Virus record (IMG/VR): IMGVR_UViG_3300043418_000226
Length of the DNA: 64,000 nt
DNA from: a virus
Taxonomy: Duplodnaviria > Heunggongvirae > Uroviricota > Caudoviricetes
Reading direction: 5' to 3' (one strand)
The position numbers and the translations under genes were made by a program. The notes under the pieces were generated by a model. That model was not told the DNA's origin and ran no database searches. It saw only the letters and a program-made list of their open reading frames with translations. This document shows positions 17,483 through 64,000 of this stretch, one piece after another; the stretch's first letter is position 1; each line of letters starts with the position of its first letter.

Positions 17483-17495
17483 AATAAAAAAATAA

Positions 17496-20394: not shown

Positions 20395-20419
20395 GATTTA
20401 TATTTATTAATAAAAAAGA

Positions 20420-25233: not shown

Positions 25234-25257
25234 TAAAAATTAAATAATAATTAAAAT

Positions 25258-27342
25258 ATGAGCTTTTTAAACAGTAACAATTCCGAATATCTTTCAGCAA
25301 GAATAACTCAAAAGGGTAGAAACGCCATTGCTAAAGGTGATTTTAAAATAAGTTACTTTACAATTGGAGATTCCGAATATAACTACGATTCTTTATTTTC
25401 AACAATCGAACAAGGGGTATTAACACCATTCGATAAAGATAGTCAAGTAAAATATCCATTGAAATTAGATAACACTAATATCAGTGGAACAACGATTTAT
25501 GGTATTCCAATTGTTGCCAGTGAACCCGAGACAATTAGAAATGTTATGGGACCTGCCGGTTTTGTTTCTGAATATAAGACATATAATTTAAGTGCAAATA
25601 CAGGAACAACTATTGAATGTTTAACAAATGAAATGGATATTACGGAGTTGGATGGTACGTCTCAAATCACAGTTCCAATTTCTACGGGGACAACATATCA
25701 AGATTGTGGGTACATTACTATTGTTTTTAATACCTTCGATACATCAGGAGTTTCACCATTAATTTCGGGAGTGACAAATAGTGTAATATATAAAATCACC
25801 GGAGTTACAACGGGGTCAACAACTGAAACGTTATTTTTAGATAGAAAAACACCTGATTTTACGGGACTTAGTGGTTCGGTTAGTGTTGTTTGTAATAGTT
25901 GTGAGATGGAATTTGACACTTCTGGTGACGTTGATACAACTTGTCTACCACAGTTACCTGACACCGATGCACAACATAATCCATGGACTCTAAATGTTGT
26001 TTGGGGACAAAAACCAATAGGTTTTGACGTAAGCGGTACTGATGAATCGTTATCTGGATTTACAAGTACCAAATACACATCAACAAAAGAGTTTTTAGGT
26101 TATGGAACATCTGGAGGTCAGGTTACAAATACGGGAACGACATATACAAATACGTTTGATGAAGTTATTACGTTAACTCCTGAAGAACAAAAATGTATTG
26201 CAATAATTCATTATTCAGAAATTGGAGACATAGTAAATGACCCAGACAGATTTTTTAAATACGATGATTACATCAGCACAGCAACTGGTAATACGATTAC
26301 TGCCGACAATAGTGACGATTTTGAATTTTTTGAGGTTCATATTCCTTTTTTAGAATACCATAGAAATACAGGTAACACATTAGGAGCAATTTTCCATATG
26401 AGTGAATCAAATAAAACAATTATATCAAGTGTTAATAATGGACTTCACATATCATATAGAGATTTATTAGATGAACAAAATTTACCAGTTGGTAAAGTGT
26501 TTCAAAATAATAAAATAATTGTATTCGATGACCAAGAAATAGTTGCGGCATTAGATTATAAATCAAATAGGAGATATACGTTACCGGCACCTAAAATTAG
26601 TTTAGTACCTACAGACACAAATGCATCGAATTCAATAATGAGTGGAACTACAGGACAAACAATGTTTGTAACATACGCTTTTGAATATGTTGGTGACACA
26701 TCTTTGAATGGTTTGCCTTGTAATTATTTCACAAAAATCACTGGTACAACTACACCATCAAACGTAACCATTAAATTTGATACAGATGAATTCCAAAATT
26801 TAAAAACAATTTTTGGAGAAGTTACCGATGGATTTATTGCAAGTAAATTTCACATATTAGCACAAAGAATTGATGAAACTGATAGTGATAACCTACCTAA
26901 CCCTAACAATTGGGTTAAGATGAACTACACAATTGAAGCGGGTGGCGATAACTCTTCATTAATCGACCCAATTGGATTAAGAGATGTTACATTTACAATT
27001 GACAAAAACAAATACGATAACGGTACAATTTTCGATTTGAATACACATTTAGGTGATGTTTATACGGGTTCAACAACTTTACCACAATTTGGTGACGAAC
27101 AACCGTTTGCTGGAAGTGTTAAATTAGTTAGGGCAACTGATATTGAAGAAATGAAGTTTTTCATTAATTTACCGTCAGGTAAATTCTCAACATCACAAAA
27201 CCCAACATTTGTTTCAGGTAATCCAAAAATAACTGAGGTGGCATTACTCAATTCAAATAAAGACGCTTTGGTCATGGCAAAAACAAGTAAACCAATTACA
27301 AGAACCGGTACACAGGTATTCGCCGTTAAACTTGATTTCTAA
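25258..27342 (+). CDS. Baseplate/tail-collar protein (DUF3751/gp8-like termini)
   Basis: N-terminal ARITQKGRNAIAKG..KISYFTIGD and C-terminal ITEVALLN....LVMAK..KPI.R are typical of tail-collar/fibre-attachment proteins. Confidence 0.6.
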   Translation: MSFLNSNNSEYLSARITQKGRNAIAKGDFKISYFTIGDSEYNYDSLFSTIEQGVLTPFDKDSQVKYPLKLDNTNISGTTIYGIPIVASEPETIRNVMGPAGFVSEYKTYNLSANTGTTIECLTNEMDITELDGTSQITVPISTGTTYQDCGYITIVFNTFDTSGVSPLISGVTNSVIYKITGVTTGSTTETLFLDRKTPDFTGLSGSVSVVCNSCEMEFDTSGDVDTTCLPQLPDTDAQHNPWTLNVVWGQKPIGFDVSGTDESLSGFTSTKYTSTKEFLGYGTSGGQVTNTGTTYTNTFDEVITLTPEEQKCIAIIHYSEIGDIVNDPDRFFKYDDYISTATGNTITADNSDDFEFFEVHIPFLEYHRNTGNTLGAIFHMSESNKTIISSVNNGLHISYRDLLDEQNLPVGKVFQNNKIIVFDDQEIVAALDYKSNRRYTLPAPKISLVPTDTNASNSIMSGTTGQTMFVTYAFEYVGDTSLNGLPCNYFTKITGTTTPSNVTIKFDTDEFQNLKTIFGEVTDGFIASKFHILAQRIDETDSDNLPNPNNWVKMNYTIEAGGDNSSLIDPIGLRDVTFTIDKNKYDNGTIFDLNTHLGDVYTGSTTLPQFGDEQPFAGSVKLVRATDIEEMKFFINLPSGKFSTSQNPTFVSGNPKITEVALLNSNKDALVMAKTSKPITRTGTQVFAVKLDF

Positions 27343-52108: not shown

Positions 52109-52135
52109 AAAAGGAGGGTTTAACCCTCCTTTTTT
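52109..52135. terminator. Intrinsic terminator
   Basis: AAAAGGAGGGTT-T-AACCCTCCTTTTT. Confidence 0.85.
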
Positions 52136-52219
52136 ATTTAATTTTTATGTATTTATATGTAGACCTAAATAGGTTATTAACCGTGATATATATCACAAGA
52201 CATTGAGAGAACCATACAT

Positions 52220-55200
52220 ATGGCACAGATAGTAAAACTACGTAGAAGTACGGTGCAGGGTCAAAAACCTGTAAATTCTAATATACAATTAGGTGAATTA
52301 GCAATAAACACCACAGACGGTAAAGTTTTCTTTGCAAAATCAGGGTCTCTCGGACCATCTGTTGAAGAATTAATCTCAACAAATACAATTAACACCGGAT
52401 CAATATCAATTACCGGTATTATTAGTGCAAGTGCCGTGCAGGGGGATGGGTCAAATATAATTAATCTTCCATTATCTGCGGTAACTAATTTAACTACAAT
52501 TTCAGGTTCAATTAATACAAGGTTAGGTTTATTAGAAATATCGAGCGGAAGTATTAGAACCGATTTTAATACATTTACGTCAAGTAATAACACAACAAAT
52601 ACCACCCAAAACAGTAGACTAACTTCTATCGAATCTGTAACAGGTAGTTTTGCCATTACTAATGGTAGTAATACATTCCAAGGAAACCAAACTGCAACGG
52701 GAAATTTAATTGCTAATGTTAATTTAATATCGGCAAATAGTTCAGGTGACGAAGGTGGTGAAATTTTATTATATAAACCACAAACTAACTCAACAATTGC
52801 GGGTACGGGAGTAACCATAGACATATATCAAAATAAATTAAGATTTTTTGAACAAGGAGGTAACGCAAGAGGTGCATATATTGATATAACAACGTTATCT
52901 AACAGTGTTGGAACGAATTTATTAGGTGGTGGAGTGGCATCTTCTGTCGATTATTCTAACATAACAAATAAACCAACATTAATATCCGGTTCATCACAAA
53001 TCACATTTAGTGGTTTAAGTGGAATACCTTCAGGTATTGTTTCAGGTTCGAGTCAAGTACTAAACGGTACGACAATTCATTCGGGTTCATTCTTTAACGG
53101 AATTTCAGTTGTTTCAGGTTCAGGTCAAATTGATATTACGTCAACAACAAACTATTCAACATTTAGTTCATCTATTGCAACCACGGACTTAAATCAAAGT
53201 AACAAGATTTCATCATTAGAAACTGCAAGTGGAAGTATCAGAACTGATTTTAACTCATTTACTTCGTCTAACAATACGATTGAATCCACTCAAAATGGTA
53301 GATTAACATCTATTGAAGGAGTTACGGGGTCAATTGGATTATTAAACACATATACGGGAAGCGCCAACGGTAGGTTAACGTCAATTGAAACTGCAACAAG
53401 TAGTTTAAATACATTTACCTCATCTATTAACACCACGATTAAATCTAAACTTAACACAGATGGTGTTATTTCAGGTTCGAGTCAAGTTTTAAATGGTTCA
53501 GGTGTATGGAGTGGGTCAGCTCAATTACCTACTGGGGTTATCTCAGGTAGTTCTCAACTACCAACAGGTACAGTATCGGGTAGTTCACAAGTCGACATAA
53601 CCGCTACTACAAACTATTCAACATTCAGTTCATCACTTGCATCCGTGGATGCCGCACAGAGTGTTAAAATTTCATCATTAGAAACGGCAAGTGGAAGTAT
53701 TAGAACGGATTTTAATACTTACACCTCTTCAGTAAATACTTCATTATCCTCAATGAATGGTGCAATTGAATTCACTGGCTCAGCGTTAACAGTTAAAGGT
53801 AATCTATTAGTTAAAGGTACAACAACCTCAATTAATTCCACAACAATGGACATTGGTGACAATATCATTCAATTAAACGGAACGGGAGCAACGAATGCAG
53901 GTATAGTAGTTAGAGATTCAACTTCACCTAACTTTGTTTCAGGATCATTGTTGTGGGATACAACAAATGACCAATGGATTGCAGGTCCCCTTGGTACAGA
54001 ACAAAAAATAGTTTTAATTGGGGATTTAAGTTCATTAAACACTTATACCGGAAGTGCTAACGGTAGATTAACAAATTTAGAAACAGCCACAAGTAGTTTA
54101 AATACGTTCACAAGTTCAATAAACACCACCATCAAAACTAAAATGAATACCGATGGAGTAATATCTGGTAGTTCACAAGTATTGAGTGGTACGGGAATTT
54201 GGTCAGGATCGGCTCAACTTCCAAGTGGAACGGTTTCGGGTTCGGGACAAATTGCCTTCGGAGGAATCACTGGTGTTCCGGTTGGTTTAGTGTCAGGTAG
54301 TTCACAAGTATTATCAGGGACCGGAATATGGAGTGGATCGGCACAATTACCTTCAGGGATTGTATCGGGTTCATCACAAGTGACATACGGCTCATTAACG
54401 GCAATTCCTTCGGGAATAGTTAGTGGGTCTTCACAAATTGCATTCGGTTCGATAACAGGTGTACCATCGGGAATAGTTAGTGGTTCATCACAAATTACTT
54501 TAGCAAGTACAACAGGTTTTGGAACGTATATTAACCAGGCGGTTTTAACGTCATCGGCTCCTTCATTTGCAGGTGCCACATTTACCGCAGCGGGAAGTGC
54601 AACTTCGGGTACCATAAATTTACAATCAACTGATTCGTTTATTAGACTATATACCACAGGTGGTACTGCAGATAAACAAAAATGGGACATTAGATCAATC
54701 AGTGCCGCGTCAAGTGAATCTTTTGAAATTAGAACAATAAATGACGCAAATACCGTATTCAGTACTAAGTTCGTTATTAACAATAGTGGAACAATTAAGT
54801 TACCTTATTATTCAACGGATGGGTTTGTTAAATTCAGTTCAAGTAATGGAACCTTAGTTGTTGACACAACCACATATCTTAGTAGTATAACAAGTACTAA
54901 CGTCACAACGGCGTTAGGGTTTACACCATACAACGCAACTAACCCGTCGGGTTATATAACATCTGCAGGTACTGCAGCTAACGTTAGTGGAACAGTTGCA
55001 GTTGCCAATGGAGGAACGGGTGGTACAACAGCGGCAAGTGCTAGAACGAACTTAGGTTTGGTAATTGGTACTGATGTTTTGGCATATAGAACATTTGGAA
55101 CTGCAGCCTCAAATAATACGGGTGATTTTGCATTGTACAATGCAACACATTATGTTGGGACGACGGCAATTGCCGCAAACAGAACTTCAGCTTCACAAAC

Positions 55201-55885
55201 GTTAACAGGAGTATCGATTGACGGTAATGCGGCAACGTCAACACAAGTAACACAAACATTAACAGGGACGAACTCGGCGAATTTACTATATGCCGCAATT
55301 GCGGATAATGACTTTGCAAGAATCCGTGTCGGCGGGGATGCGACAAATGCTGGTTGGTTGGAGTTAGCAACTGCGGATGATGGTACAGAACCAATTTATG
55401 TTAGACAATATACTGGAACATTTGTAACCGCAACAAGAACCGCAACATTATTAGACGGTAGTGGTAACACATCATTTCCGGGAACGGTAAGTGGAGCTAG
55501 ATTATCTTCTTCGGATGGAACCAATGCAATATCAATCGGACAATGGGATGGAACGTACAATAGAATTGAAAGTTCCAATAGACCTCTTTTCCTAACATCA
55601 TATACCACCGCAATTCATTTTGGTATGAGTGGTGGAATAAATTACACAATGAATAGTTCCGGTTTGATACCATCGGCAAATAACACCTATAACTTAGGTT
55701 CCGCAACGTATGGTTGGGCAAACGTTTATACGAATGACTTACATTTAAGTAACATGAATAAACCTGAAGGAAACGATATCGACGGAACAAGTGGTACATG
55801 GACAATTCAGGAGGGAGCTGAGAATCTATATATCATAAACAATAGAAACGGTAAGAAGTTTAAAATTAATTTAGAAGAAATTTAA
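52220..55885 (+). CDS. Long tail-fibre protein (mosaic)
   Basis: MAQIVKLRRS...LGELAINTTDGKVFF head; VSGSSQ repeats; VANGGTGGTTAASARTNLGL; C-terminal LGS....WANVYTNDLHLSN...DGTSGTWTIQEGAENLYIIN. Confidence 0.8.
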   Translation: MAQIVKLRRSTVQGQKPVNSNIQLGELAINTTDGKVFFAKSGSLGPSVEELISTNTINTGSISITGIISASAVQGDGSNIINLPLSAVTNLTTISGSINTRLGLLEISSGSIRTDFNTFTSSNNTTNTTQNSRLTSIESVTGSFAITNGSNTFQGNQTATGNLIANVNLISANSSGDEGGEILLYKPQTNSTIAGTGVTIDIYQNKLRFFEQGGNARGAYIDITTLSNSVGTNLLGGGVASSVDYSNITNKPTLISGSSQITFSGLSGIPSGIVSGSSQVLNGTTIHSGSFFNGISVVSGSGQIDITSTTNYSTFSSSIATTDLNQSNKISSLETASGSIRTDFNSFTSSNNTIESTQNGRLTSIEGVTGSIGLLNTYTGSANGRLTSIETATSSLNTFTSSINTTIKSKLNTDGVISGSSQVLNGSGVWSGSAQLPTGVISGSSQLPTGTVSGSSQVDITATTNYSTFSSSLASVDAAQSVKISSLETASGSIRTDFNTYTSSVNTSLSSMNGAIEFTGSALTVKGNLLVKGTTTSINSTTMDIGDNIIQLNGTGATNAGIVVRDSTSPNFVSGSLLWDTTNDQWIAGPLGTEQKIVLIGDLSSLNTYTGSANGRLTNLETATSSLNTFTSSINTTIKTKMNTDGVISGSSQVLSGTGIWSGSAQLPSGTVSGSGQIAFGGITGVPVGLVSGSSQVLSGTGIWSGSAQLPSGIVSGSSQVTYGSLTAIPSGIVSGSSQIAFGSITGVPSGIVSGSSQITLASTTGFGTYINQAVLTSSAPSFAGATFTAAGSATSGTINLQSTDSFIRLYTTGGTADKQKWDIRSISAASSESFEIRTINDANTVFSTKFVINNSGTIKLPYYSTDGFVKFSSSNGTLVVDTTTYLSSITSTNVTTALGFTPYNATNPSGYITSAGTAANVSGTVAVANGGTGGTTAASARTNLGLVIGTDVLAYRTFGTAASNNTGDFALYNATHYVGTTAIAANRTSASQTLTGVSIDGNAATSTQVTQTLTGTNSANLLYAAIADNDFARIRVGGDATNAGWLELATADDGTEPIYVRQYTGTFVTATRTATLLDGSGNTSFPGTVSGARLSSSDGTNAISIGQWDGTYNRIESSNRPLFLTSYTTAIHFGMSGGINYTMNSSGLIPSANNTYNLGSATYGWANVYTNDLHLSNMNKPEGNDIDGTSGTWTIQEGAENLYIINNRNGKKFKINLEEI

Positions 55886-55922
55886 TATAGATTTTTACAA
55901 TAAAAAACATTATAATAAAAAT

Positions 55923-56654
55923 ATGCCATTATACATTAAAAATAATCAAGTTATTAGTTCGAATGATATCACCAGTGGTGGAACTTCTATAGGAAAAGTT
56001 AATCGCGATGGGTTAATTTTACATTTAGATGCGGGTCATTCGGATTCATATTCTGGTAGTGGTAGTACTTGGTATGATTTAAGTGGTACGGGTAATAATG
56101 TTACCATAACGGGCCCTACATGGACAACTATCGGCGGAGTAACATCGTTTAATTTTAACGGTAATGGACAATACGTTAGTAAAACGGGACTTTCATTGTT
56201 CCCAACGACTCAATTAACATATGAAGTTTGGTTATACCCTGCCGCTAGTGACACACAGGCCGATGATAGAGGATGTGTAATTCAGACTGGTGGTGGAAAT
56301 GCGGCATATATGAGTTTTAATAAAACGAATAGGTATATGTCAAATTATTGGTATAATCACTTACCCGAAGGTTATCACGAATCTAATGGGCCGTCTGCTA
56401 GAAGTGCGTGGCACCATTGGTGTGCGGTTTGGGATAATAAAAGTGTACATCAATGGGTTGACGGAACATATAATGTTGTGAAAAACGTATACGGAACATC
56501 AACTGCCAATACGAATTTATGGATTGGGAATGAAGGCGGGGGTTCTAGACAATTTTCGGGAGCCATCGCGGTTGTAAGAATTTATAATAGAGGATTAAAC
56601 GGTTATGAGGTTTACGAAAACTTTCGAGCTCAAAGAGGACGTTTTGGAATATAA
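55923..56654 (+). CDS. LamG/concanavalin-like lectin domain protein
   Basis: GLILHLDAG..DSYSGSGSTWYDLSG...W.H...W...VDG...F.G.I..VRIYNRGL...E. Confidence 0.85.
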   Translation: MPLYIKNNQVISSNDITSGGTSIGKVNRDGLILHLDAGHSDSYSGSGSTWYDLSGTGNNVTITGPTWTTIGGVTSFNFNGNGQYVSKTGLSLFPTTQLTYEVWLYPAASDTQADDRGCVIQTGGGNAAYMSFNKTNRYMSNYWYNHLPEGYHESNGPSARSAWHHWCAVWDNKSVHQWVDGTYNVVKNVYGTSTANTNLWIGNEGGGSRQFSGAIAVVRIYNRGLNGYEVYENFRAQRGRFGI

Positions 56655-56662
56655 ATAAAATT

Positions 56663-57466
56663 ATGGGAATAAAAATAGGTAGTAATACATTATCGGGAAT
56701 TAACTTTAATACGTTAGGTGAAAACATTGTACCAAATGTCGTCACTGACGGTTTAGTGTTATGGTTAGATGCTGGTAACGGAGCTTCATTCGGTAATGCA
56801 GACACATACTATGATTGTGGATACGGATGTCAATATTACTCAACAAATCCCGGTTGTACAAATTGTAATACCCAATGGAAAGACATGTCCGGATATGGGA
56901 ACGATGCAACATTATACAATGGAGCATACGTTAGTTACGACACAAATAGTGGTGGAGGTTCAGTATATTTCGATGGGGTCAACGACAACGCTAGACAATC
57001 GAATACCACATTTAATAGGGTAAATGGTGATGAAATGACGGTTTCTGTTTGGATGAGACCAGGTAGAAATGGGGGGCAATATCAAGATATCATTGTTAAT
57101 CGTTCGGATAGTTTGTATAATTGGATGTTATACCAACACACAACGGATGGGTCAATACAATTACATGGTTCAGCACAAAATAAATCATCATATATTCCAA
57201 CATTAAATGTTTGGATAAACGTATCGGCAACGGTAACATCTGGAGGTGTTTACACTTTATATGTTAACGGAGTTGTTCAACAAACAGTGAGTGGCTATAC
57301 ATATGCAGGAATGTCCCCAAGTTTATTATGTATCGGTTGTTTTGGAACGACAATTTATGAACCATATTTAGGTTACGTCTCTTCCGCAATGATTTATAAT
57401 AGATCCTTAAGTGCAAATGAAATTTTACAAAATTTTAATAACGGAAGAATTAGATTTGGAATATAA
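56663..57466 (+). CDS. LamG-like lectin domain protein with Cys-rich insert
   Basis: VTDGLVLWLDAG...WKDMSG...YFDGVND...YVNG...IYNRSLSANEI; insert CGYGC...GCTNC. Confidence 0.85.
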   Translation: MGIKIGSNTLSGINFNTLGENIVPNVVTDGLVLWLDAGNGASFGNADTYYDCGYGCQYYSTNPGCTNCNTQWKDMSGYGNDATLYNGAYVSYDTNSGGGSVYFDGVNDNARQSNTTFNRVNGDEMTVSVWMRPGRNGGQYQDIIVNRSDSLYNWMLYQHTTDGSIQLHGSAQNKSSYIPTLNVWINVSATVTSGGVYTLYVNGVVQQTVSGYTYAGMSPSLLCIGCFGTTIYEPYLGYVSSAMIYNRSLSANEILQNFNNGRIRFGI

Positions 57467-57469
57467 TAT

Positions 57470-59113
57470 ATGTCAGTAATTTTTAAAAAAACAAATATGT
57501 TACCCGTCGAACAATGGACAATTGGTTCAGACGGTGTTGGTGATTTTAATGCAAATGGTAGTGCGGGTGAAAATGCGAGAATATTAGGTACCGACCCATT
57601 TGGTAATAGTGCTATCGTTTGGCAATCACAACCAAATGGAAACGGTAATGACGACGGTGGTTGGAATTGTAATTCGTTTACTATAGATGAAAAAAAATTA
57701 TATCGTTTTTCCGTATGGGTTAAAAGAGTATCATCAACGACTAATGGTACTTCTTATTTTGGGTTAAATGCAAGTGCAAATCCCGTGGGGATATCGGGAG
57801 GTTCACAAATGGGTAACCCATATTGGGATTGTCGAAATATTGGTTCATTTACACAAGACGTATGGTATCTGTTGGTGGGTCACGTATTTCCATCTGATTA
57901 TACCGGCGGACTTACAGTACATCCAGACACCGCAATATATACAACATCGGGGTATAACACGGGTATTGGTTTTTGTAATATTGGTAGTGATTTAAAATGG
58001 TATCCTGGAACCACTTACGCAAATCACCGAGCATATCATTATTATTGTAATGATAATACTTCTAGAATACAATGGTATGAACCAAGAATGGACCTATGTG
58101 ACGGTTCAGAACCAAAAATAAGTGACTTACTTGCAAATAGTAGAAACATATTAAGTTCAAGTTCAGTAACCGTTGAAGGTGCCTCAATTAAAAATCAAAA
58201 AATTATTGCAAGTGGGGGTATCATTACAGATTTTGGTGAATGGAGAGTACATAGATTTAATAGTAGTGGTACATTTACTTTAACGTCTTCAGTTGGAACA
58301 TCGTTACCTGTCGATTACCTAATCGTTGCCGGTGGCGGTGGTGGTGGAATGGACATGGGCGGCGGAGGTGGCGGCGGAGGAGTTTTAAATGGTAAAACTA
58401 TTTTAACACCGGCATCGTACACAATCACCGTAGGTGGTGGAGGTACAGGTGCACCTGCAGCAGGAACGAACGGACAAAATACCAATCACCAATATAATAT
58501 ATCGGCAACTCAAGGAGGTAACTCATCTTTTAATGGACTAACAGCCGTTGGTGGTGGGTACGGTGCAAGTTCATATTATGGTTACACTCCAAACTATGGA
58601 TACCCTGGTAGTGGTGGTAGTGGTGGAGGACCTAGCGGATATAGTGATGGTAGTACCCGAAGTGGAGGTACAGGAACTTCAGGTCAAGGAAATAATGGCG
58701 GAGGTGGTGGTGGTCAATACTACTCAGGTGGTGGCGGTGGAGCCGGTTCCGTTGGTACAAGTTCAACAAATAGACCTGATGGAGGTTCGGGAAAATTAGT
58801 ACCAATATTAGGACGACCATTCTATTGGGGCGGTGGTGGAGGTGGAGCATCGTATTCATTAGGTACTGGCGGTTATGGTGGTACCGGTGGCGGTGGTGGC
58901 GGTGCTGTCGGTGTAACAACAGGTGGACAAAATGGAGTTGCTTGGGGAGGTAACGGCGGTGGTGGATCACCAAACTCACAAACTAACACGCCAGGTGGAG
59001 ATGGAGGAACGAACACCGGTGGAGGAGGTGGTGGAGGTTCTCACTATAATGCAAATAATAAAGGAGGTAACGGTGGAAGTGGTATCGTTATCATTAGATA
59101 TAAAATAAAATAA
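57470..59113 (+). CDS. Tail-associated protein: carbohydrate-binding-like N domain plus glycine-rich domain
   Basis: KLYRFSVWVKR module; ASGG...HRFNSSGTFT...DYLIVAGGGGG...GGNGGSGIVIIRY glycine-rich domain. Confidence 0.8.
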   Translation: MSVIFKKTNMLPVEQWTIGSDGVGDFNANGSAGENARILGTDPFGNSAIVWQSQPNGNGNDDGGWNCNSFTIDEKKLYRFSVWVKRVSSTTNGTSYFGLNASANPVGISGGSQMGNPYWDCRNIGSFTQDVWYLLVGHVFPSDYTGGLTVHPDTAIYTTSGYNTGIGFCNIGSDLKWYPGTTYANHRAYHYYCNDNTSRIQWYEPRMDLCDGSEPKISDLLANSRNILSSSSVTVEGASIKNQKIIASGGIITDFGEWRVHRFNSSGTFTLTSSVGTSLPVDYLIVAGGGGGGMDMGGGGGGGGVLNGKTILTPASYTITVGGGGTGAPAAGTNGQNTNHQYNISATQGGNSSFNGLTAVGGGYGASSYYGYTPNYGYPGSGGSGGGPSGYSDGSTRSGGTGTSGQGNNGGGGGGQYYSGGGGGAGSVGTSSTNRPDGGSGKLVPILGRPFYWGGGGGGASYSLGTGGYGGTGGGGGGAVGVTTGGQNGVAWGGNGGGGSPNSQTNTPGGDGGTNTGGGGGGGSHYNANNKGGNGGSGIVIIRYKIK

Positions 59114-59116
59114 AAC

Positions 59117-59482
59117 ATGGCACATTTTGCACAGATAGACGATAATAACATTGTGACACAAGTATTAGTGGTACCCGATGAACAACAATATAGAGGTCAG
59201 GATTATTTATCAAACGATTTAATGTTAGGTGGAAGATGGGTTCAAACTTCCTATAATGGTAACATGAGAGGAATGTTTGCGGGAATTGGTTATAGTTACA
59301 ATCAAGATTTAAATACTTTCATATCCCCAAAACCATTCCCATCTTGGATATTAAATAATAATTTAGGTATATGGGAATCGCCAATTGAAAAACCAAACGA
59401 CGAAGAAGGAAAAGTATGGATATGGGATGAAGAAAATCAACAATGGAATCAAGAAGATTTACCAACACCAATCATTTCGTAA
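59117..59482 (+). CDS. Conserved partner of glycine-rich tail proteins
   Basis: MAHFAQID..NIVTQVLVV...WVQTSYN...R..FAGIGYSY....FI.PKPFPSW.L...W..P...P....W.WDE. Confidence 0.75.
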   Translation: MAHFAQIDDNNIVTQVLVVPDEQQYRGQDYLSNDLMLGGRWVQTSYNGNMRGMFAGIGYSYNQDLNTFISPKPFPSWILNNNLGIWESPIEKPNDEEGKVWIWDEENQQWNQEDLPTPIIS

Positions 59483-59510: not shown

Positions 59511-60251
59511 ATGAATAACATTGGATTTGGTATATTTTGTTTTGGTGAAAACTATTATTATCGGGGTACTTTTGAAAAAATTGATAAGATTTTGGAAGAA
59601 GGTTACCCCGTTTATATATTAACAGAATCATCCGAAATATTCGAAGAGAAATATACCAACAAACAAATACAGTTAATACCGTATACTCGAGAAATTAAGT
59701 CTTACCACGATAAAATGATTCTCCCAAAACACATCCTTAAAAATCACGATATTAGTATTTTAATAGATGCCGACACACATATTACCGATTACACATTTTT
59801 AGAACAATTAAAAGAATATCCTTTTAAAAAGGGGATTACCTATGTCGATACTTTATTAAACCATTCCGCGAAACGTGAATTTATTAGGGAATTAATTAAT
59901 AACAACCAAGAATGGAAATTATATAACGAATCGGCCGAAAAAATATGTCCTTCTTATTCTAATTTTGAAACGATATGGGAATATTTCTTAGTTGTTAATA
60001 AGGAAGGTTTCGATAGTTTAAATTTTTATAAAATATACGAGAAATTACAACTTATAAAGGAGTACTCTGATTTAGAATACAATAAAAATGTTATTGGCGC
60101 CGGTGAAGGAATTACTATTCAGATTAGTTCCAATTTATCTAACACAACAATACAAAAAGACTTAAATTTATATGAAATAATTAAAGATAAGATGTTAAGT
60201 GTCAGTAGAAGACACACACCACATCATCTTTGGCCAAATTGGATGAAATAA
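59511..60251 (+). CDS. Putative GT-A fold glycosyltransferase
   Basis: Beta strand GFGIFCFG..Y, VYILTE, and ILIDADT (DxD motif); start reassigned to ATG 59511. Confidence 0.5.
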   Translation: MNNIGFGIFCFGENYYYRGTFEKIDKILEEGYPVYILTESSEIFEEKYTNKQIQLIPYTREIKSYHDKMILPKHILKNHDISILIDADTHITDYTFLEQLKEYPFKKGITYVDTLLNHSAKREFIRELINNNQEWKLYNESAEKICPSYSNFETIWEYFLVVNKEGFDSLNFYKIYEKLQLIKEYSDLEYNKNVIGAGEGITIQISSNLSNTTIQKDLNLYEIIKDKMLSVSRRHTPHHLWPNWMK

Positions 60252-60979
60252 TGGTAAACGAAGAATACATAAAGAAATTTATTACAACAAATGATGGAGA
60301 ACCGGTTCCATATCGTTGGACACACGGTGCAACCGATTTACACGTAGGTGATGGAATTATGGTATATTCACTCATCCAACAACTAAGAGCTAAACAGTGT
60401 GTCTGTATTGGGTCCGGAGGTGGGTTTATACCACGTATCATAACACAAGCAAGAGTTGACCTTCACAAACAAGGAATTTTTGAGGGTGATAGTGACTTTA
60501 ATTGGGGTGACATCGGCGCAACTTATGTTGTTGATGCGTGTAACGGTGTTGGAGGACCTAATGATTTGGAAAATGAAGAATCGTTTTATAGAACACACTT
60601 TTTCCCACGTTTTATTAAATCAACATCCGAAGAGGCGTTCCATGATTTTTTTGTTCGTCAGGACATTAAAATTGATTTTCTTTTTATTGACGGTGACCAC
60701 TCATATGAAGGAGTAAAAAAAGATTTTGAACTATATTCAACTATATTATCAGATAATGGTATAATAGTTATACATGATACTGATGAAAAATACGAAGAAA
60801 CGTTAATTGTTTCTGAAGACGCAAAAAAAGACCACTACAGATTTGACGGACCATCTAAGTTTGTTAAAGAATTACAAAAAAACCCTAACTATAATTTGAT
60901 TAATTTGTTTAATTTTCGTATATTATCAACAAAACCAACCTCAAGTGGTTTAACGATAATAAACAAAAAACATGATTAA
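60251..60979 (+). CDS. Class I SAM-dependent methyltransferase (Methyltransf_24-like)
   Basis: CIGSGGG, FLFIDGDHSYEGVKKDF, GIIVIHDT; TAATG overlap suggests the start is 60251. Confidence 0.85.
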   Translation: MVNEEYIKKFITTNDGEPVPYRWTHGATDLHVGDGIMVYSLIQQLRAKQCVCIGSGGGFIPRIITQARVDLHKQGIFEGDSDFNWGDIGATYVVDACNGVGGPNDLENEESFYRTHFFPRFIKSTSEEAFHDFFVRQDIKIDFLFIDGDHSYEGVKKDFELYSTILSDNGIIVIHDTDEKYEETLIVSEDAKKDHYRFDGPSKFVKELQKNPNYNLINLFNFRILSTKPTSSGLTIINKKHD

Positions 60980-61829
60980 ATTAGTTACGGTTGTCGGTCA
61001 CGGGACCAATTTATTACCACACTTTATTAAACATTACTTACAATATGTTGATGAAATTTATATTGTGGCATATATTACCGACAACTCCCCAAATTTAAAG
61101 AATGAGATATTAAACGTAACTCACAATTACAAGAATGTGGTTATGTGTGACGTTGTAAGGGACCGTAGTTTTGATTGGAATAAAGTAACACAATTATATA
61201 ATCAAGTTAAATTAAAATATCCAAATGATTGGTGGGTTGTTGCGGATATTGACGAACTACAATTGTACCCAAACAATGATTTAAAATCTTTAATATCCGA
61301 ATGTGATAAAAATGGATGGGATTTAGTAAGAGGTGGGTTTATAGATAGGGTCGGAATAGATGGGGAATTTCCTGAAATAAAAGAAGATATTTCACTATTC
61401 GAACAATTCCCAAATGCCGGTTTTTTTAGATACCCATTAAGTAATGCGTGTCCAAATAAGGTATGTGTAATGAAAGGCTATGTAGAAATTACGTCGGGCC
61501 AACATTATGCTAAACTTAATGGTCAAACAACTTGGAGATGGCAGGGATGGAACCACCCACTAATTGCTCCACATAACTTATACTCGGTTCAGGTACACCA
61601 TTTTAAGTGGGATAAAACATGTATAGATAGAATTAAGTCTGTCGTGGACGTAAATGAAGAATATGCGTACTCAACTGAGTACGAAATTATGTATAAAAAT
61701 TTAAGAAAACATCGATATAAAATTGACATAAATAATCCCGAATTTCAATTTGAAAATGGTAAAAATGTGTCCACATTTGATGGATATAAAAATTGGAATA
61801 AATTAATAAATAAAATAGTATCAATATGA
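60972..61829 (+). CDS. Glycosyltransferase, GT2/GT92-like (Glyco_tranf_2_4 type)
   Basis: LLPHFIKHY..YVDEIYI...WWVVADIDE...NK...GQH...VHHFKW. Confidence 0.75.
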   Translation: MIKLVTVVGHGTNLLPHFIKHYLQYVDEIYIVAYITDNSPNLKNEILNVTHNYKNVVMCDVVRDRSFDWNKVTQLYNQVKLKYPNDWWVVADIDELQLYPNNDLKSLISECDKNGWDLVRGGFIDRVGIDGEFPEIKEDISLFEQFPNAGFFRYPLSNACPNKVCVMKGYVEITSGQHYAKLNGQTTWRWQGWNHPLIAPHNLYSVQVHHFKWDKTCIDRIKSVVDVNEEYAYSTEYEIMYKNLRKHRYKIDINNPEFQFENGKNVSTFDGYKNWNKLINKIVSI

Positions 61830-62020
61830 CAACAGAAGAAAAAGAAGCTTTAGAACTAAGAAAAGTGAAGGCGTTAGAAAAAATTGCGAACTCAGTAGAC
61901 GCATTAACAATATGGTTTGAGGAAGTAGATAAAACCGAATGGAGTGAAAGAATTCAATATTACCTTTCCGAATGGCATCGAACATCAATAAAATCAAAAG
62001 AGGAACCATTAAATGAATAA
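61826..62020 (+). CDS. Small hypothetical protein
   Basis: 64-aa helical ORF overlapping both neighbours. Confidence 0.6.
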   Translation: MTTEEKEALELRKVKALEKIANSVDALTIWFEEVDKTEWSERIQYYLSEWHRTSIKSKEEPLNE

Positions 62021-63428
62021 TAAACCTAAATTAGGTGTTATTGTACCCTATAGACATAGGGAACCACAATTACCTGAATTTATCGATAGAATAACGGAAC
62101 ACCTAAATAAACAAGATATCCCACATGAGATTATTATCGTTGAACAGGACGATGGGAAACAATTTAATCGTGGAATGTTATTAAACATAGGATTTAAACA
62201 ATCAAAACAAATGAGATGTGACTATGTGGTATTTCATGACGTTGATATGTTACCGTTAGATGTTGATTATTCATATTCAGAAGTACCCTTACATTTGGCA
62301 ACCAATTTTGAAGGGGAAAAAAAGGTAGTTTTTGACGAATATTTCGGAGGTGTTACAATGTTTCCATCTAAACTATTTGAAAAGATGGACGGATATTCAA
62401 ACAAATATTGGGGGTGGGGTTACGAAGACACTGACTTATTGTTTAGATGTAAACAATACGAAATACCACTTAATACACAGAAAATAAAAAACCAAGGAAG
62501 AAAAGGAAAGGCACTTAGATTTTATGGTAAGAATTCAAAAGTAATTTGTGATAACATAATTGATTTCAACTCAAATGCGACGTTCTTTATATCATTCAAT
62601 CCCGATGACGTGGAATTTAATCATTTGAAACCGTCCGACGAATTTACTGTGTTCAGTATACCGGGATACGACTTTGCAATTTGTTTTAACTCATTTTTAA
62701 GATATAATTTCTGTATGTTTGACAATAAAATGGAACCATTTTACGTTAATTCAAACATTAAAACAAACTATAAAACAAATATGGTTGTTACTCTTGATAG
62801 GTTAGATAACATTATTAAAGTATACCAAGATGGGGTTTTTATAGGTGAAACCAGTGGATTTAGAAAATTATATTTTTATAAAAAAGAACCTAAATTTTAT
62901 TTGGGAGTAGGAAAACCAGATAGGGAAGAAACTCAGAATTATTATAGAGGTACGATTGACTCGTTTGCATATTTTGATGACATCTTAAGCGAAAAAGAAA
63001 TATTCGAAATCTCATCAAATTCAACTAATTTATTGAGTAATAATTTTGGTAATTATAAATCGTCACGTTCATTAAAAACTTACTACGATGCCAATCATAT
63101 TAGTAACTATAAACTAATTGATTTATCGGGTAATCATAATGACGGTGTAATAAAAGATTGTGCAATTCAAAATGAAGAATACGACGAATATAAAGAAATA
63201 AAAATACCGTTTAGAAGAGTATCAAAATTCCAATCGTTACCACACGAAGAGAATGGATTTTTAGGTAATAAATGGAAAGACCAAGCAACAAGATGGAACC
63301 AATTAAGGTATCAGAATGAAGTTTACAAAAATAATTTAATCGATAATGACGGAATGTCAACATTGAAATTCACACTCCATGGTAAAACCAAAGAGGGGAA
63401 TGTAACAACACTTAACGTAGGTTTATGA
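62013..63428 (+). CDS. GT7 (beta-1,4-galactosyltransferase family) glycosyltransferase with inserted LamG domain
   Basis: VIVPYR, FNRGMLLNIGF, FHDVDMLP, FGGV, WGWGYED; LamG YQDG...LG...YRGTIDSFAYFDDILSEKEI; GT7 tail resumes ...LPH...N..RY...DGMSTLKF. Confidence 0.88.
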   Translation: MNNKPKLGVIVPYRHREPQLPEFIDRITEHLNKQDIPHEIIIVEQDDGKQFNRGMLLNIGFKQSKQMRCDYVVFHDVDMLPLDVDYSYSEVPLHLATNFEGEKKVVFDEYFGGVTMFPSKLFEKMDGYSNKYWGWGYEDTDLLFRCKQYEIPLNTQKIKNQGRKGKALRFYGKNSKVICDNIIDFNSNATFFISFNPDDVEFNHLKPSDEFTVFSIPGYDFAICFNSFLRYNFCMFDNKMEPFYVNSNIKTNYKTNMVVTLDRLDNIIKVYQDGVFIGETSGFRKLYFYKKEPKFYLGVGKPDREETQNYYRGTIDSFAYFDDILSEKEIFEISSNSTNLLSNNFGNYKSSRSLKTYYDANHISNYKLIDLSGNHNDGVIKDCAIQNEEYDEYKEIKIPFRRVSKFQSLPHEENGFLGNKWKDQATRWNQLRYQNEVYKNNLIDNDGMSTLKFTLHGKTKEGNVTTLNVGL

Positions 63429-64000
63429 GTCATAAATTAGGTATCTGCATACCGTATAGAAATAGAAAAGAACATATTGATAGATTAATTCCACATTTAT
63501 CGAAACATTTAGATAATCAAGGAATTGATTATAAATTCTATGTCGGACATCAAGTAGATGATAAGTTATTCAACAGGGGAATGATGAAGAATATTGCTGC
63601 ACAATATGCATTTAACGATGGATGTGACTACATTGCATGGCACGATGTGGATATGTTACCAAATTTAGAATGTGATTATTCATATCCTGAAGAAACCCCA
63701 TTACACATTGCGACTAAACTATCAAAATATAATTACGGATTAGGTTATGACCAATATTTTGGTGGGGTAGTTTTATTTACAAAAGAACAGGTAGAAAAAA
63801 CAAACGGTTATTCCAACGAATATTGGGATTGGGGACAGGAAGATGATGATTTATTTTGGAGAGCTTATTATGAAGGTTATACAACTGGTGAAGTATTCAA
63901 AACGTACGAAAATAAAACAGTGGCAAATTTTAATGGTAACGACTCAAGTTTAGTTATCCCAACCAATCGGGAAATATCGTCCTGTTTACACAATGACCAT
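63425..64000 (+). CDS. Second GT7 glycosyltransferase (3'-truncated by window edge; not in ORF track)
   Basis: MSHKLGICIPYRNR...HQVDDKLFNRG...DYIAWHDVDMLP...YFGGVVLF...WDWGQEDDDL, then ANFNG..S suggesting the start of LamG. Confidence 0.88.
   Translation, partial: MSHKLGICIPYRNRKEHIDRLIPHLSKHLDNQGIDYKFYVGHQVDDKLFNRGMMKNIAAQYAFNDGCDYIAWHDVDMLPNLECDYSYPEETPLHIATKLSKYNYGLGYDQYFGGVVLFTKEQVEKTNGYSNEYWDWGQEDDDLFWRAYYEGYTTGEVFKTYENKTVANFNGNDSSLVIPTNREISSCLHNDH

What the first reader, a model, noticed from the sequence alone, without database searches (positions are those of the whole stretch)
59511..64000. Candidate phage-encoded virion O-glycosylation ('phage proteoglycan/mucin') system
Seen: directly after the fibre/LamG genes is a coupled cluster of a DxD GT-A-like protein, a SAM methyltransferase, a GT2/92-like enzyme and two GT7 enzymes. 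The same window has five structural genes with long Pro/Thr mucin-like tracts, and its baseplate proteins carry a dispersed [S/T]-G-x-T motif. Established: GT7 is the largely eukaryotic beta-1,4-galactosyltransferase family; beta4GalT7 extends Xyl-O-Ser at Ser-Gly sites of proteoglycans. The 63425 N-terminus (HKL...P.R.R...PH...QVD..FNR...DYIAWHDVDMLP...DYSYPE..PLHIA) follows the beta4GalT7 motif pattern as I recall it. Inference: the phage builds a methylated O-glycan on its own tail/baseplate proteins, which could shield, hydrate or rigidify them, or mimic host or algal glycans.
Basis: partly seen in the sequence, partly recalled or inferred. Interest (0 to 1): 0.85.

Follow-up and report, generated by a model that had tools for sequence, protein, structure and literature searches.

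The report
Phage glycan-building cassette beside fibre genes
A large uncultured aquatic phage carries, right behind its putative tail-fibre genes, a tightly coupled set of sugar-adding and sugar-methylating enzymes that is conserved in many related phages; it probably decorates phage proteins with a tailored glycan, but the target is unproven and the proposed link to Pro/Thr tracts does not hold.

Summary
Window 59511-64000 encodes six translationally coupled genes:
- a GT-A-fold protein with an invariant DAD motif;
- a Methyltransf_24 methyltransferase;
- a GT2_4 enzyme;
- a conserved 64-aa helical protein;
- two paralogous GT7 (beta4GalT-like) enzymes. In the first, a LamG jelly-roll interrupts the catalytic domain. 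The second is cut by the window end; full-length relatives carry the same insert.

The MT-GT2-s64-GT7-GT7 core, followed by an N-terminal-twitch radical SAM gene, keeps its order in 55-58 of 65 IMG/VR loci. The GT7-LamG protein has 1842 metagenomic 90%-identity clusters and no isolate-phage homologue.

The five Pro/Thr-tract proteins and the [ST]GxT enrichment are also real.

- The enzymes are soluble.
- Near-complete cassette-bearing phage genomes encode no lipid-carrier priming, flippase or polymerase genes.
- The cassette shares a promoter-like motif with structural genes.
- The nearest bacterial GT7 genes sit beside OGT-type protein glycosyltransferases.

These points favour a cytoplasmic protein acceptor, most plausibly virion proteins. 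However, four near-complete cassette-bearing genomes have no PT tracts. A syntenic relative keeps PT tracts but carries a different glycan island. beta4GalT7 is not favoured over beta4GalT1.

Earlier notes of this scan on the same genome described the same island.

The parts
59511..60251 (+). U246: 246-aa GT-A-fold protein with an invariant DAD motif. It is a candidate retaining glycosyltransferase and a variable member of the cassette, present in 21-22 loci.
   Evidence: No Pfam or PHROG hit. Alignment A2 shows D86, A87 and D88 invariant. The AF2 model has pLDDT 89.5. Foldseek gives GT6, GT8/LARGE1 and UGGT catalytic domains at E about 1e-6 and TM 0.45-0.52.
60251..60979 (+). SAM-dependent methyltransferase (Methyltransf_24), probably a metal-dependent sugar O-methyltransferase. 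It is the most conserved cassette gene. A TTG at 60230 is an alternative start.
   Evidence: Pfam PF13578, 51.7 bits. Found in 55 loci. Mean column identity is 68%, with invariant D147/H150 and H175/D176/D178. The start overlaps the stop of U246.
60972..61829 (+). GT2-like GT-A glycosyltransferase (Glyco_tranf_2_4).
   Evidence: 28.4 bits against a cut-off of 27.5. 22 of 23 homologues match the same family. Found in 57 loci. No PDB sequence relative.
61826..62020 (+). s64: a 64-aa protein whose central ~45 residues are highly conserved while both tails vary. Function unknown.
   Evidence: tblastn finds it in 58 loci at 58-77% identity. No family hit. ATGA overlap with GT2 and an 8-nt overlap with the next gene.
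62013..63428 (+). GT7L-A: a beta4GalT-like (GT7) catalytic domain interrupted by a LamG/ConA-like jelly roll of about 240 aa. The N-terminal catalytic part is about residues 1-160, the LamG insert about 161-395, and the C-terminal catalytic part about 396-471.
   Evidence: Pfam GT7N 73.8, GT7C 55.9 and Laminin_G_3 30.8 bits. The PDB profile matches beta4GalT1 and beta4GalT7 in two stretches that flank the insert. AF2 pLDDT is 92.4. Invariant D76, D78, W133, W135, E138, D139 and H411.
63425..64000 (+). GT7L-B: the second GT7 paralogue, cut by the window end at residue 192. Full-length relatives are 465-491 aa with the same LamG insert.
   Evidence: Pfam GT7N 66.8 and GT7C 72.5 bits. B copies in relatives carry GT7N+GT7C+Laminin_G_3. 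The A and B clades are reciprocally monophyletic. Each whole phage genome searched has exactly two adjacent GT7 genes.
52109..52157 (+). Terminator-like hairpin (52109-52133) followed by the promoter-like motif TATTTATA (52150-52157). This is the probable start of the transcription unit that runs through the fibre, LamG and cassette genes.
   Evidence: No further intergenic gap longer than 37 nt lies between 52220 and 64000.
52220..59482 (+). Upstream structural-type genes: a 1221-aa Ser/Thr/Gly-rich putative fibre, two Laminin_G_3 proteins, a Gly_rich_2 protein and a phrog_7759 protein.
   Evidence: Pfam and PHROG hits for the LamG, Gly-rich and phrog_7759 genes. The 1221-aa protein has no family hit.
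11413..25233 (+). Block of putative baseplate or tail proteins. Five of them carry long Pro/Thr tracts (11413-12687, 12696-13934, 15134-16729, 17496-19775, 21337-25233).
   Evidence: The structural role rests on context and weak PHROG hits.
9632..27342 (+). Four proteins enriched in [ST]GxT: 9632-11413, 19873-20394, 21337-25233 and 25258-27342.
   Evidence: In the G001 homologue of 25258-27342 there are 18 motifs against 1.5 expected, and 8 of the 14 window sites fall in the same alignment columns.

Best explanation
The region is the conserved head of a phage-encoded, host-independent glycan assembly line that works in the infected cell's cytoplasm.

Proposed pathway:
- A variable first transferase starts a sugar chain on an acceptor. 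Here it is the DAD-motif GT-A protein U246. In another lineage it is a probable GT-B protein.
- A GT2-like enzyme and two paralogous inverting GT7 (beta4GalT-like) enzymes extend the chain.
- A Methyltransf_24 enzyme O-methylates it.
- Downstream enzymes (radical SAM, sugar-nucleotide and other tailoring enzymes) supply and modify unusual sugars.

Each GT7 carries a LamG lectin-like domain inserted just before the loop segment that bears the conserved His. It probably docks the enzyme on its acceptor, either glycan or protein.

The most likely acceptor is one or more phage structural proteins made at the same time (fibre, LamG or baseplate proteins). That would give a glycosylated virion, as in mycobacteriophages and giant viruses.

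Shown: the gene content, folds, catalytic motifs, coupling, conservation and context. Inferred: the order of steps, the sugars and the acceptor.
For: 1. Family and fold of each enzyme, with conserved catalytic residues.
2. All junctions overlap.
3. The same gene order holds in 55-58 loci, always directly behind fibre-type genes, in two divergent lineages. One of these has a Peptidase_S74 fibre.
4. The promoter-like TATTTATA motif has 63 of its 119 copies in the 2.6% of DNA that is intergenic. It precedes fibre, LamG, U246, MT and s64 genes alike.
5. No TM segment or signal peptide in any cassette protein.
6. No Bac_transf or Glycos_transf_4 in the 3 cassette-bearing genomes searched, and no Wzx or Wzy in the 5 searched, all 95-100% complete.
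7. One complete genome with the cassette has no ThyA-family hydroxymethylase. No Tet_JBP was found in three, though that control was silent.
8. Bacterial GT7 relatives (36-41% identity):
- In 15 Azospirillum/Roseomonas loci they sit in a conserved GT10 - unknown - TPR+GT41 (OGT-like) - GT7 array.
- They lie beside GT41 in 5 more MAG loci with other gene orders.
- A. brasilense polar flagellin carries an O-linked Rha/Fuc/Gal/GlcNAc glycan (PMC3958885).
9. Precedents:
- Courthouse has MCP - TylF O-MT - GT - GalT.
- Soluble chlorovirus GTs and MTs build capsid glycans (PMC9614988).
10. A syntenic relative has a different glycan island at the same post-fibre position, as expected for a surface glycan under diversifying selection.
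Against: - There is no direct evidence of a glycan on any protein.
- The fibre identity of the window's two large proteins is inferred.
- The position next to fibre genes could simply mark a recombination-prone accessory region.
- Comparable glycan islands of T4-like cyanophages are usually read as host-surface modification (PMC12801897).
- The phage genomes have no GT41, so the bacterial GT41-GT7 partnership is not reproduced.
- The enzymes are not orthologous to the mycobacteriophage ones. Only the N-terminal GT-A core matches: hhalign probability 85% over 69 columns. The MT and GT2 show no match.
- The whole island is far more elaborate than any known virion glycosylation system.
Confidence: 0.45

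Rival explanations
1. Host envelope remodelling. The island makes or alters a host surface glycan (LPS O-antigen, capsule, S-layer or pilus/flagellin glycan) during infection, for example to block superinfection or grazing. The phage enzymes would feed into host lipid-carrier and export machinery.
For: Large glycan islands in T4-like cyanomyoviruses are interpreted this way (PMC12801897). Relatives carry sugar-nucleotide enzymes: epimerase/dehydratases, an RmlC-like protein, DegT and a cytidylyltransferase. G017's replacement island has LPS-type families GT25, GT10 and GT11.
Against: The phage genomes searched encode no priming phosphoglycosyltransferase (3 genomes), flippase or polymerase (5 genomes). 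All cassette proteins are soluble. The cassette is coupled to structural genes and shares their promoter-like motif. These are large phages with no sign of lysogeny in the window.
Confidence: 0.2
2. Another cytoplasmic acceptor. The cassette glycosylates host or non-structural phage proteins (for example to disable a host function), builds its chain on the small s64 protein, or makes a free glycosylated metabolite or natural product.
For: The bacterial GT7-GT41 linkage points to protein acceptors in general, not to virions. s64 is the best-conserved small gene and sits inside the cassette. Twitch radical SAM, aminotransferase and TPP enzymes are typical of natural-product sugar tailoring.
Against: No scaffold-forming or export genes were seen in the loci. 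s64 is helical, with its core conserved rather than a leader/core layout. The cassette's position and promoter type match those of structural genes.
Confidence: 0.15
3. A beta4GalT7-like enzyme extends Xyl-O-Ser at Ser-Gly type sites, building a proteoglycan- or mucin-like methylated O-glycan on the PT tracts and [ST]GxT sites of baseplate proteins.
For: GT7 membership is solid, and beta4GalT7 is the top Foldseek hit by a small margin: 33% vs 29% identity, E 1e-13 vs 3e-12. The PT tracts and the [ST]GxT enrichment are real. Motif sites are conserved in one homologue.
Against: The profile search does not separate T7 from T1. Four 95-100% complete cassette-bearing genomes lack PT tracts. G017 keeps PT tracts with a different island. 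The motif-rich baseplate protein has no detectable homologue in two cassette-bearing genomes, and only a marginal one in a third. Fibres beside the cassette are not motif-enriched. No xylosyltransferase-like gene was identified.
Confidence: 0.06
4. DNA hypermodification. The transferases glycosylate modified bases in phage DNA to evade restriction, as T-even phages do.
For: Phage GTs classically act on DNA (PMC9614988, PMC12619734). The protein that replaces U246 in the second lineage has, by language-model features only, an AGT-family cluster among its nearest named clusters. Radical SAM enzymes occur in some base-hypermodification clusters (own knowledge).
Against: GT7 enzymes extend sugars, not bases. 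They carry a LamG lectin insert. The cassette includes a Methyltransf_24 methyltransferase, probably a sugar O-methyltransferase, and many sugar-tailoring genes. The complete genome G001 has the cassette but no ThyA-family hydroxymethylase. No Tet_JBP was found (weak because the control was silent). Linkage is to late-type genes.
Confidence: 0.06

Closest known systems
CAZy family GT7: beta-1,4-galactosyltransferases (beta4GalT1, beta4GalT7)
   Same: Both Pfam GT7 halves score above their cut-offs. DVD, FNRG, YFGG and WGWGxED are invariant. The sequence profile hits beta4GalT1 and beta4GalT7 at E about 1e-43. The modelled catalytic core superposes at rmsd about 1.9 A over about 155 residues.
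   Different: The phage enzymes have no N-terminal membrane anchor or stem. A LamG domain of about 240 aa splits the catalytic domain before the His-bearing loop. They occur as an adjacent paralogue pair inside a phage operon. The residue aligned to the donor-specificity Tyr of beta4GalT1 is Phe (alignment; the role of that Tyr is from my own knowledge). The subfamily (T1 vs T7) is unresolved.
Mycobacteriophage virion O-glycosylation cassettes (clusters O, F and J; Freeman et al. 2023, as cited in PMC11600133)
   Same: An O-methyltransferase gene is followed by tandem glycosyltransferase genes embedded among virion structural genes. Courthouse has MCP - TylF O-MT - GT - 'galactosyl transferase'. 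[quoted passage not shown]
   Different: The enzymes are not orthologous. Only a remote GT-A core match links GT7L to Courthouse gp17 (tblastn E 0.05; hhalign 85%). The MT and GT2 show no match. Here there are LamG inserts and a large downstream tailoring island, and the neighbours are fibre rather than capsid genes.
Autonomous glycosylation machinery of giant viruses (chlorovirus PBCV-1 A064R/A061L/A111-114R; Megavirinae fibril glycosylation clusters)
   Same: Virus-encoded soluble GTs, sugar methyltransferases and sugar-nucleotide enzymes build unusual methylated glycans on structural proteins in the cytoplasm (PMC9614988, PMC10117803).
   Different: The hosts are eukaryotic, the virus realm is different and the GT families are different. 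GT7 is not mentioned in that review. No structural data exist for the phage.
Cell-wall/LPS gene islands of T4-like cyanomyoviruses (P-SSM2, S-SCSM1, S-SCSM2R)
   Same: Large myoviruses carry many GTs plus NDP-sugar epimerases and RmlC in one region. The function is untested (PMC12801897).
   Different: Those islands hold GT1/2/10/11/25 families and Kds genes and are read as host-surface modification. No GT7-LamG pair, N-twitch radical SAM array or fixed MT-GT2-s64-GT7-GT7 core is reported there. The G017 island found here resembles them more.
Bacterial GT10 - TPR/GT41 (OGT-like) - GT7 clusters of Azospirillum
   Same: These are the closest cellular relatives of the phage GT7 catalytic domain (36-41% identity). 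They are soluble and sit in a multi-GT operon.
   Different: They have no LamG insert, a single GT7 and a GT41 partner that the phages lack. Their function is also untested. The link to the Fuc/Gal/GlcNAc flagellin glycan (PMC3958885) is my inference.
Polypeptide GalNAc-transferases (GT27): GT-A catalytic domain plus lectin domain
   Same: A GT-A enzyme with a beta4GalT-like 'Gal/GalNAc-T motif' is joined to a carbohydrate-binding domain that steers it to (glyco)protein substrates (own knowledge). This is a working analogy for the LamG insert.
   Different: The lectin there is a C-terminal ricin-type domain, not an inserted LamG. Those enzymes are retaining and lie in the Golgi lumen. No homology beyond the GT-A core was tested here.

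Membership tests
CAZy GT7 / beta4GalT-like | Both Pfam halves (Glyco_transf_7N, Glyco_transf_7C) above the gathering score | tested here: met
   62013-63428 scores 73.8 and 55.9 bits. 63425-64000 scores 66.8 and 72.5 bits. The cut-offs are 27 and 23.
CAZy GT7 / beta4GalT-like | DxD metal/donor motif (DVD) and the WGWGxEDD small-loop motif | tested here: met
   D76, D78, W133, W135, G136, E138 and D139 are invariant in 39 sequences covering both paralogues. They align to the same motifs of beta4GalT1.
CAZy GT7 / beta4GalT-like | GT-A fold superposable on solved beta4GalT structures | tested here: met
   The model has pLDDT 92.4. The top 29 Foldseek hits are beta4GalT7 or beta4GalT1, rmsd 1.7-2.7 A over about 155 columns for nearly all.
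CAZy GT7 / beta4GalT-like | Metal-binding His at the hinge of the long flexible loop | tested here: inconclusive
   H411 is invariant and lies 14-17 residues before the segment that aligns with the C-terminal part of beta4GalT1. The His itself falls outside the aligned stretch.
CAZy GT7 / beta4GalT-like | Type II membrane topology with an N-terminal anchor and stem (eukaryotic members) | tested here: not met
   The protein starts at the catalytic domain. The maximum 19-residue hydropathy is 1.19, against 2.56 for a membrane-protein control.
CAZy GT7 / beta4GalT-like | Transfer of Gal or GalNAc from a UDP-sugar in beta1-4 linkage | not testable with these tools
   This needs an enzyme assay.
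beta4GalT7 subfamily (proteoglycan linker GalT-I) | Clearly closer to beta4GalT7 than to other GT7 subfamilies | tested here: inconclusive
   The profile gives T1 152.5 bits and T7 149.3 bits. Foldseek gives T7 E 1.3e-13 at 33% identity and T1 E 3.4e-12 at 29%. No tree with CAZy references could be built.
beta4GalT7 subfamily (proteoglycan linker GalT-I) | Xylose-specific acceptor pocket and a partner xylosyltransferase | not tested
No xylosyltransferase-like gene was recognised in the loci.
Phage virion O-glycosylation system (mycobacteriophage type) | O-methyltransferase plus tandem GT genes inside the structural gene module | tested here: met
   The window order is putative fibre - LamG - ... 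- GT - MT - GT - s64 - GT7 - GT7.
Phage virion O-glycosylation system (mycobacteriophage type) | Homology of the enzymes to the characterised mycobacteriophage enzymes | tested here: not met
   MT vs gp15 gives no match. GT2 vs gp16 gives probability 0.3%. GT7L vs gp17 gives 85% over 69 columns only.
Phage virion O-glycosylation system (mycobacteriophage type) | Glycans demonstrated on virion proteins | not testable with these tools
Und-P-dependent surface polysaccharide locus (O-antigen/capsule type) | Initiating phosphoglycosyltransferase (Bac_transf or Glycos_transf_4) | tested here: not met
   0 of 3 near-complete cassette-bearing genomes have one, while the controls ring in 9 and 12 of 14 genomes.
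Und-P-dependent surface polysaccharide locus (O-antigen/capsule type) | Wzx flippase and Wzy polymerase/ligase | tested here: not met
   0 of 5 genomes for PF01943 and for PF04932, while the controls ring in 13 and 9 of 14. ABC-type export was not tested.
Phage DNA glycosylation (T-even type) | A pathway making hydroxymethylated bases (ThyA-family hydroxymethylase or TET/JBP) | tested here: inconclusive
   PF00303 is absent from the complete genome G001 but present in G002 and G003. PF12851 is absent from all three, but its control did not ring anywhere.

The most novel reading that the evidence does not exclude
A widespread clade of uncultured aquatic jumbo phages coats its own tail fibres or other virion proteins with an elaborate, host-independent glycan. 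Two LamG-inserted GT7 enzymes nucleate the chain. Downstream radical SAM, methyl-, sulfo- and acyl-transfer enzymes tailor it. Related phages swap the whole island at the same post-fibre position, much as bacteria swap O-antigen loci, which would create 'virion serotypes'. This would be the bacteriophage counterpart of giant-virus glycosylation, and a new use of the GT7 fold with a built-in lectin specifier.
Probability: 0.35. Interest if true: 0.85.

Novelty: new variant of a known kind. Interest (0 to 1): 0.62.

Why it matters
Virion glycosylation by phage-encoded enzymes is so far documented only for mycobacteriophages, and autonomous viral glycosylation mainly for giant viruses.

This cassette is abundant: 1842 protein clusters at 90% identity, on contigs of up to 335 kb. 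It is strictly ordered, and the papers I could search do not describe it.

If its product sits on the virion, then many environmental jumbo phages carry a self-made sugar coat. That coat could affect adsorption, stability, grazing or recognition by host defences.

The GT7-LamG architecture would also be a compact, soluble, bacterially expressible beta4GalT-type enzyme with a built-in targeting domain, of interest for glyco-engineering.

The finding also shows that GT7 is not confined to eukaryotes. In Azospirillum it is partnered with OGT-like enzymes, which gives a testable candidate pathway for flagellin glycosylation.

Tried and rejected
- Isolate phages. Neither DNA nor protein search found a relative of the cassette in 50,697 records at E 1e-5. 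At E 1 only remote mycobacteriophage GT hits appeared.
- T4-type late promoter. TATAAATA is not enriched on the coding strand. The reverse-looking motif TATTTATA is the enriched one.
- Sigma-70 promoter and terminator scans of 48000-64000 were at background.
- s64 as a RiPP precursor. I rejected this because the helical core is conserved, the tails vary and there is no Cys.
- LamG insert as a recent copy of the neighbouring LamG virion genes. BLASTP gives no significant similarity.
- PDB sequence relatives. The GT2_4 gene has none. U246 gave one chance-level hit, E 0.097. The MT gave one weak hit, E 0.064, to a 'methyltransferase domain protein'.
- NCBIfam gave nothing for the cassette genes.
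- No Rfam family or tRNA lies in the region.
- GT41 in the phages: absent.
- 'Moraphage' paper (PMC12619734). I could not test whether this is the same lineage, because that paper lists no IMG/VR identifiers.
- A tree against CAZy GT7 subfamilies was not possible, because eukaryotic reference sequences could not be brought in by reference.
No whole genome is held for the window.

Full report
WHAT IS THERE

The window is part of a large uncultured phage with GC of about 32%. It encodes RNR and baseplate-wedge genes. It has no near relative among 50,697 isolate phage records.

From 52220 to the window end all genes lie on the + strand with gaps of at most 37 nt. The order is:
- a 1221-aa Ser/Thr/Gly-rich protein. 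It has no family hit, so 'fibre' is an inference;
- two Laminin_G_3 proteins, a Gly_rich_2 protein and a phrog_7759 protein;
- then the cluster named in the finding.

U246 (59511-60251) has no sequence-family hit. Its 16-sequence alignment keeps an invariant D-A-D. Its model (pLDDT 89.5) has a GT-A fold closest to retaining GT6/GT8/GT24 enzymes.

The methyltransferase is Methyltransf_24. It is the best-conserved gene, with conserved acidic/His clusters that suggest a metal-dependent O-methyltransferase (the functional reading is inference).

The third gene matches Glyco_tranf_2_4 only just above threshold, but 22 of 23 homologues match it too.

Between it and the GT7 genes lies a 64-aa protein, s64. 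Its central ~45 residues are highly conserved across the loci.

All five junctions overlap, which points to translational coupling. None of the proteins has a hydrophobic segment.

THE GT7 PAIR

Both GT7 proteins pass the Pfam cut-offs for both halves of the family. A profile of 39 phage sequences hits beta4GalT1 and beta4GalT7 at about 1e-43. The match comes in two stretches that flank residues ~154-424.

The AlphaFold model (pLDDT 92.4) shows a beta-sandwich in that interval. Foldseek matches its catalytic part to beta4GalT7/T1, and the insert to LamG/ConA-like lectin folds.

DVD, WGWGxED and a His just after the insert are invariant in both paralogues, so both look active.

The second gene is truncated by the window. 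Its full-length relatives have the same three-domain layout. The A and B copies form reciprocally monophyletic clades, so the duplication predates the spread of the cassette.

The insert evolves faster than the catalytic parts (47% vs 64% identity within A copies) but is never lost in this clade. It is not a recent copy of the neighbouring LamG virion genes.

The claimed specific likeness to beta4GalT7 is not resolved: T1 and T7 score alike.

DISTRIBUTION AND CONTEXT

A viral-contig scan returned 65 loci. In 55-58 of them the order is MT - GT2 - s64 - GT7 - GT7, followed by a radical SAM gene and then a ~245-aa protein. The radical SAM gene matches NCBIfam N_Twi_rSAM at 352 bits.

The protein database holds 1842 clusters of the GT7-LamG protein, none informatively named.

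Downstream, relatives carry more radical SAM paralogues, NAD-dependent sugar epimerase/dehydratases, an RmlC-like cupin, a DegT aminotransferase, TPP-enzyme subunits, a cytidylyltransferase and several proteins with SGNH-type N-terminal motifs (judged by eye). This agrees with earlier first-reader notes on the stretch beyond this window.

Two contexts exist. Type A, as in the window, has Ser/Thr-rich large proteins, LamG paralogues and often U246 upstream. Type B has SbcC, a very large protein that in one cluster carries a Peptidase_S74 fibre chaperone domain, a DUF5977 protein and a 327-397-aa protein in place of U246. By language-model features only, that last protein resembles GT-B transferases.

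So the cassette follows fibre-type genes in both lineages, and its first transferase varies.

TESTS OF THE PROPOSED SUBSTRATE

The five PT-tract proteins and the [ST]GxT enrichment are real. In one baseplate homologue at 53% identity the motif is again about 12-fold enriched, and 8 of 14 sites share alignment columns. The motif is therefore under constraint, whether structural or otherwise.

Comparative genomics nevertheless separates these features from the cassette.

Counts of a PT-tract DNA pattern in whole cassette-bearing contigs:

| Type | Contigs | PT-pattern hits |
|---|---|---|
| A | six | 67, 89, 39, 32, 81, 3 |
| B | four (95-100% complete) | 0, 0, 0, 0 |

Conversely, contig G017 is syntenic with window genes 28079-48680 at 42-81% amino-acid identity and keeps 34 PT hits. 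After its large fibre-like proteins it carries a different glycan island: GT2_5+GT2, GT25, GT11, an FkbM methyltransferase, GT10, DegT, GDP-mannose dehydratase and an epimerase. It has no GT7 and no N_Twi_rSAM in its 100-kb fragment, including the 68 kb downstream of the baseplate gene.

The motif-rich baseplate protein has no detectable homologue in two type B genomes and only a marginal one in a third. The fibres beside the cassette are not motif-enriched.

It is not met for 'some glycan island'.

WHICH ACCEPTOR CLASS?

Against a lipid-carrier surface polysaccharide. The near-complete cassette-bearing genomes searched encode no initiating phosphoglycosyltransferase (3 genomes), Wzx or Wzy (5 genomes), while the controls ring. 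All cassette proteins are soluble.

Against DNA. One complete genome lacks any ThyA-family gene. No TET/JBP was seen, though that is a weak negative. GT7 enzymes extend sugars.

For co-expression with structural genes. The octamer TATTTATA has 63 of its 119 copies in the 2.6% of DNA that is intergenic. It lies 11-30 nt before fibre, LamG, U246, MT and s64 genes in relatives. In the window it lies before 13961, 16787, 35322, 49454 and 52220. The last copy follows a terminator-like hairpin. That it is a late promoter is inference.

For protein acceptors. A scan of prokaryote genomes found LamG-less GT7 genes (36-41% identity) in real bacterial chromosomes.
- In 15 Azospirillum/Roseomonas loci the order is GT10 fucosyltransferase - unknown - TPR+GT41 (OGT-like, 295 bits) - GT7.
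- GT41 homologues also neighbour GT7 in five other alphaproteobacterial MAG loci with different gene orders.
- To my knowledge all characterised GT41 enzymes glycosylate proteins.
- A. brasilense polar flagellin carries an O-linked glycan of Rha, Fuc, Gal and GlcNAc (PMC3958885).
- The phages themselves lack GT41.
- In SAR11 single-cell genomes the GT7 gene stands alone beside his genes, which is uninformative.

PRECEDENTS

[quoted passage not shown] 2023). Courthouse has MCP - TylF O-MT - GT - galactosyl transferase. These enzymes are at best remotely related to the ones here.

Chloroviruses and Megavirinae build structural-protein glycans, some of them methylated, with their own enzymes; the chlorovirus GTs are mostly predicted soluble (PMC9614988, PMC10117803).

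Large glycan islands in T4-like cyanophages are known but untested, and are usually ascribed to host-surface change (PMC12801897).

VERDICT

The best reading (confidence about 0.45) is a conserved, autonomous, cytoplasmic glycan-assembly cassette. Its product most likely ends up on phage structural proteins, and the LamG inserts act as acceptor-docking modules.

The thing is a new variant of a known kind, namely virus-encoded glycosylation. Its enzyme architecture and cassette are undescribed in the papers I could search. They are common in aquatic metagenomes, so the finding is worth bench work.

Earlier notes of this scan on the same genome had already flagged the island and the LamG insertion. 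I tested these claims independently.

Noticed in passing
window 13950-13957, 16775-16782, 35301-35308, 49424-49431, 52150-52157 (+ strand reading TATTTATA); loci L001-L058: The octamer TATTTATA sits 11-30 nt upstream of many structural-type genes. In the loci, 63 of its 119 copies fall in the 2.6% of DNA that is intergenic. It is probably this phage clade's (late?) promoter. T4's TATAAATA is not enriched on the coding strand.
   Followed up: partly
window 61826-62020; 58 loci: A 64-aa protein (s64) with a highly conserved two-helix core and variable tails is always wedged between the GT2 and GT7 genes. It has no family hit and its function is unknown; it could be an adaptor, chaperone or acceptor.
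   Followed up: partly
G017 = IMGVR_UViG_3300042691_035814 (L151-L154), about 63-77 kb of that contig: A relative syntenic with window genes 28079-48680 carries a completely different glycan island at the same post-fibre position: GT2_5+GT2, GT25, GT11, FkbM MT, GT10, DegT, GDP-mannose dehydratase and an epimerase. The site behaves like a swappable glycan locus.
   Followed up: partly
L168-L170, L172, L175-L178, L181-L186, L212 (Azospirillum/Roseomonas genomes); L162, L166, L180, L189, L196: Bacterial GT7 genes lie in a conserved GT10 - unknown - TPR+GT41 (OGT-like) - GT7 array. This is a candidate pathway for a Fuc/Gal/GlcNAc O-glycan on a protein such as the glycosylated polar flagellin of A. 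brasilense.
   Followed up: partly
L199-L201, L205, L206, L209 (Pelagibacteraceae single-cell genomes); L201:7986-8765: SAR11 genomes encode a solitary soluble 259-aa GT7 enzyme. In L201, the one locus annotated, it lies between histidine-biosynthesis genes and a TRAP transporter, so GT7 is present in one of the most abundant aquatic bacteria.
   Followed up: no
L059-L065 (small IMG/VR contigs), e.g. L064:10058-18879: SU10-like podophage contigs carry a LamG-less GT7 gene before the terminase gene. They also carry a GT11 fucosyltransferase-like gene and an Anp1-like GT directly after the SU10-type major capsid protein gene. This is another case of eukaryote-type GT families embedded in a phage structural module.
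   Followed up: partly
L155-L158 (contigs binned into Pelagibacterales, Flavobacteriaceae [248 kb], Flavobacteriales and Anaeromicropila MAGs): The whole MT-GT2-s64-GT7-GT7-rSAM cassette occurs on contigs filed under bacterial MAGs. These are most likely phage contigs carried along by binning. At best they are weak host hints.
   Followed up: no
window 25258-27342 and its homologue L067:1501-3576 (G001): [ST]GxT is about 10-fold enriched in both proteins, and 8 of the 14 window sites share alignment columns at 53% overall identity. The motif is under constraint, but its role (turn structure or modification site) is unknown.
   Followed up: partly
L071, L072 (IMGVR_UViG_3300046787_000445, 3300020044_007096): Two short IMG/VR contigs encode a 95%-identical copy of the 25258-27342 protein. 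They are the closest relatives of the window's phage seen here.
   Followed up: no
relatives, directly after the second GT7 gene (e.g. L026:13361-14794): The first downstream gene is an N-terminal-twitch radical SAM (NCBIfam NF033640, 352 bits). In some loci it is fused to 700-940 aa, and it is followed by an unannotated ~245-aa protein (clusters 8/9). G014 has four such rSAM genes in a row.
   Followed up: partly
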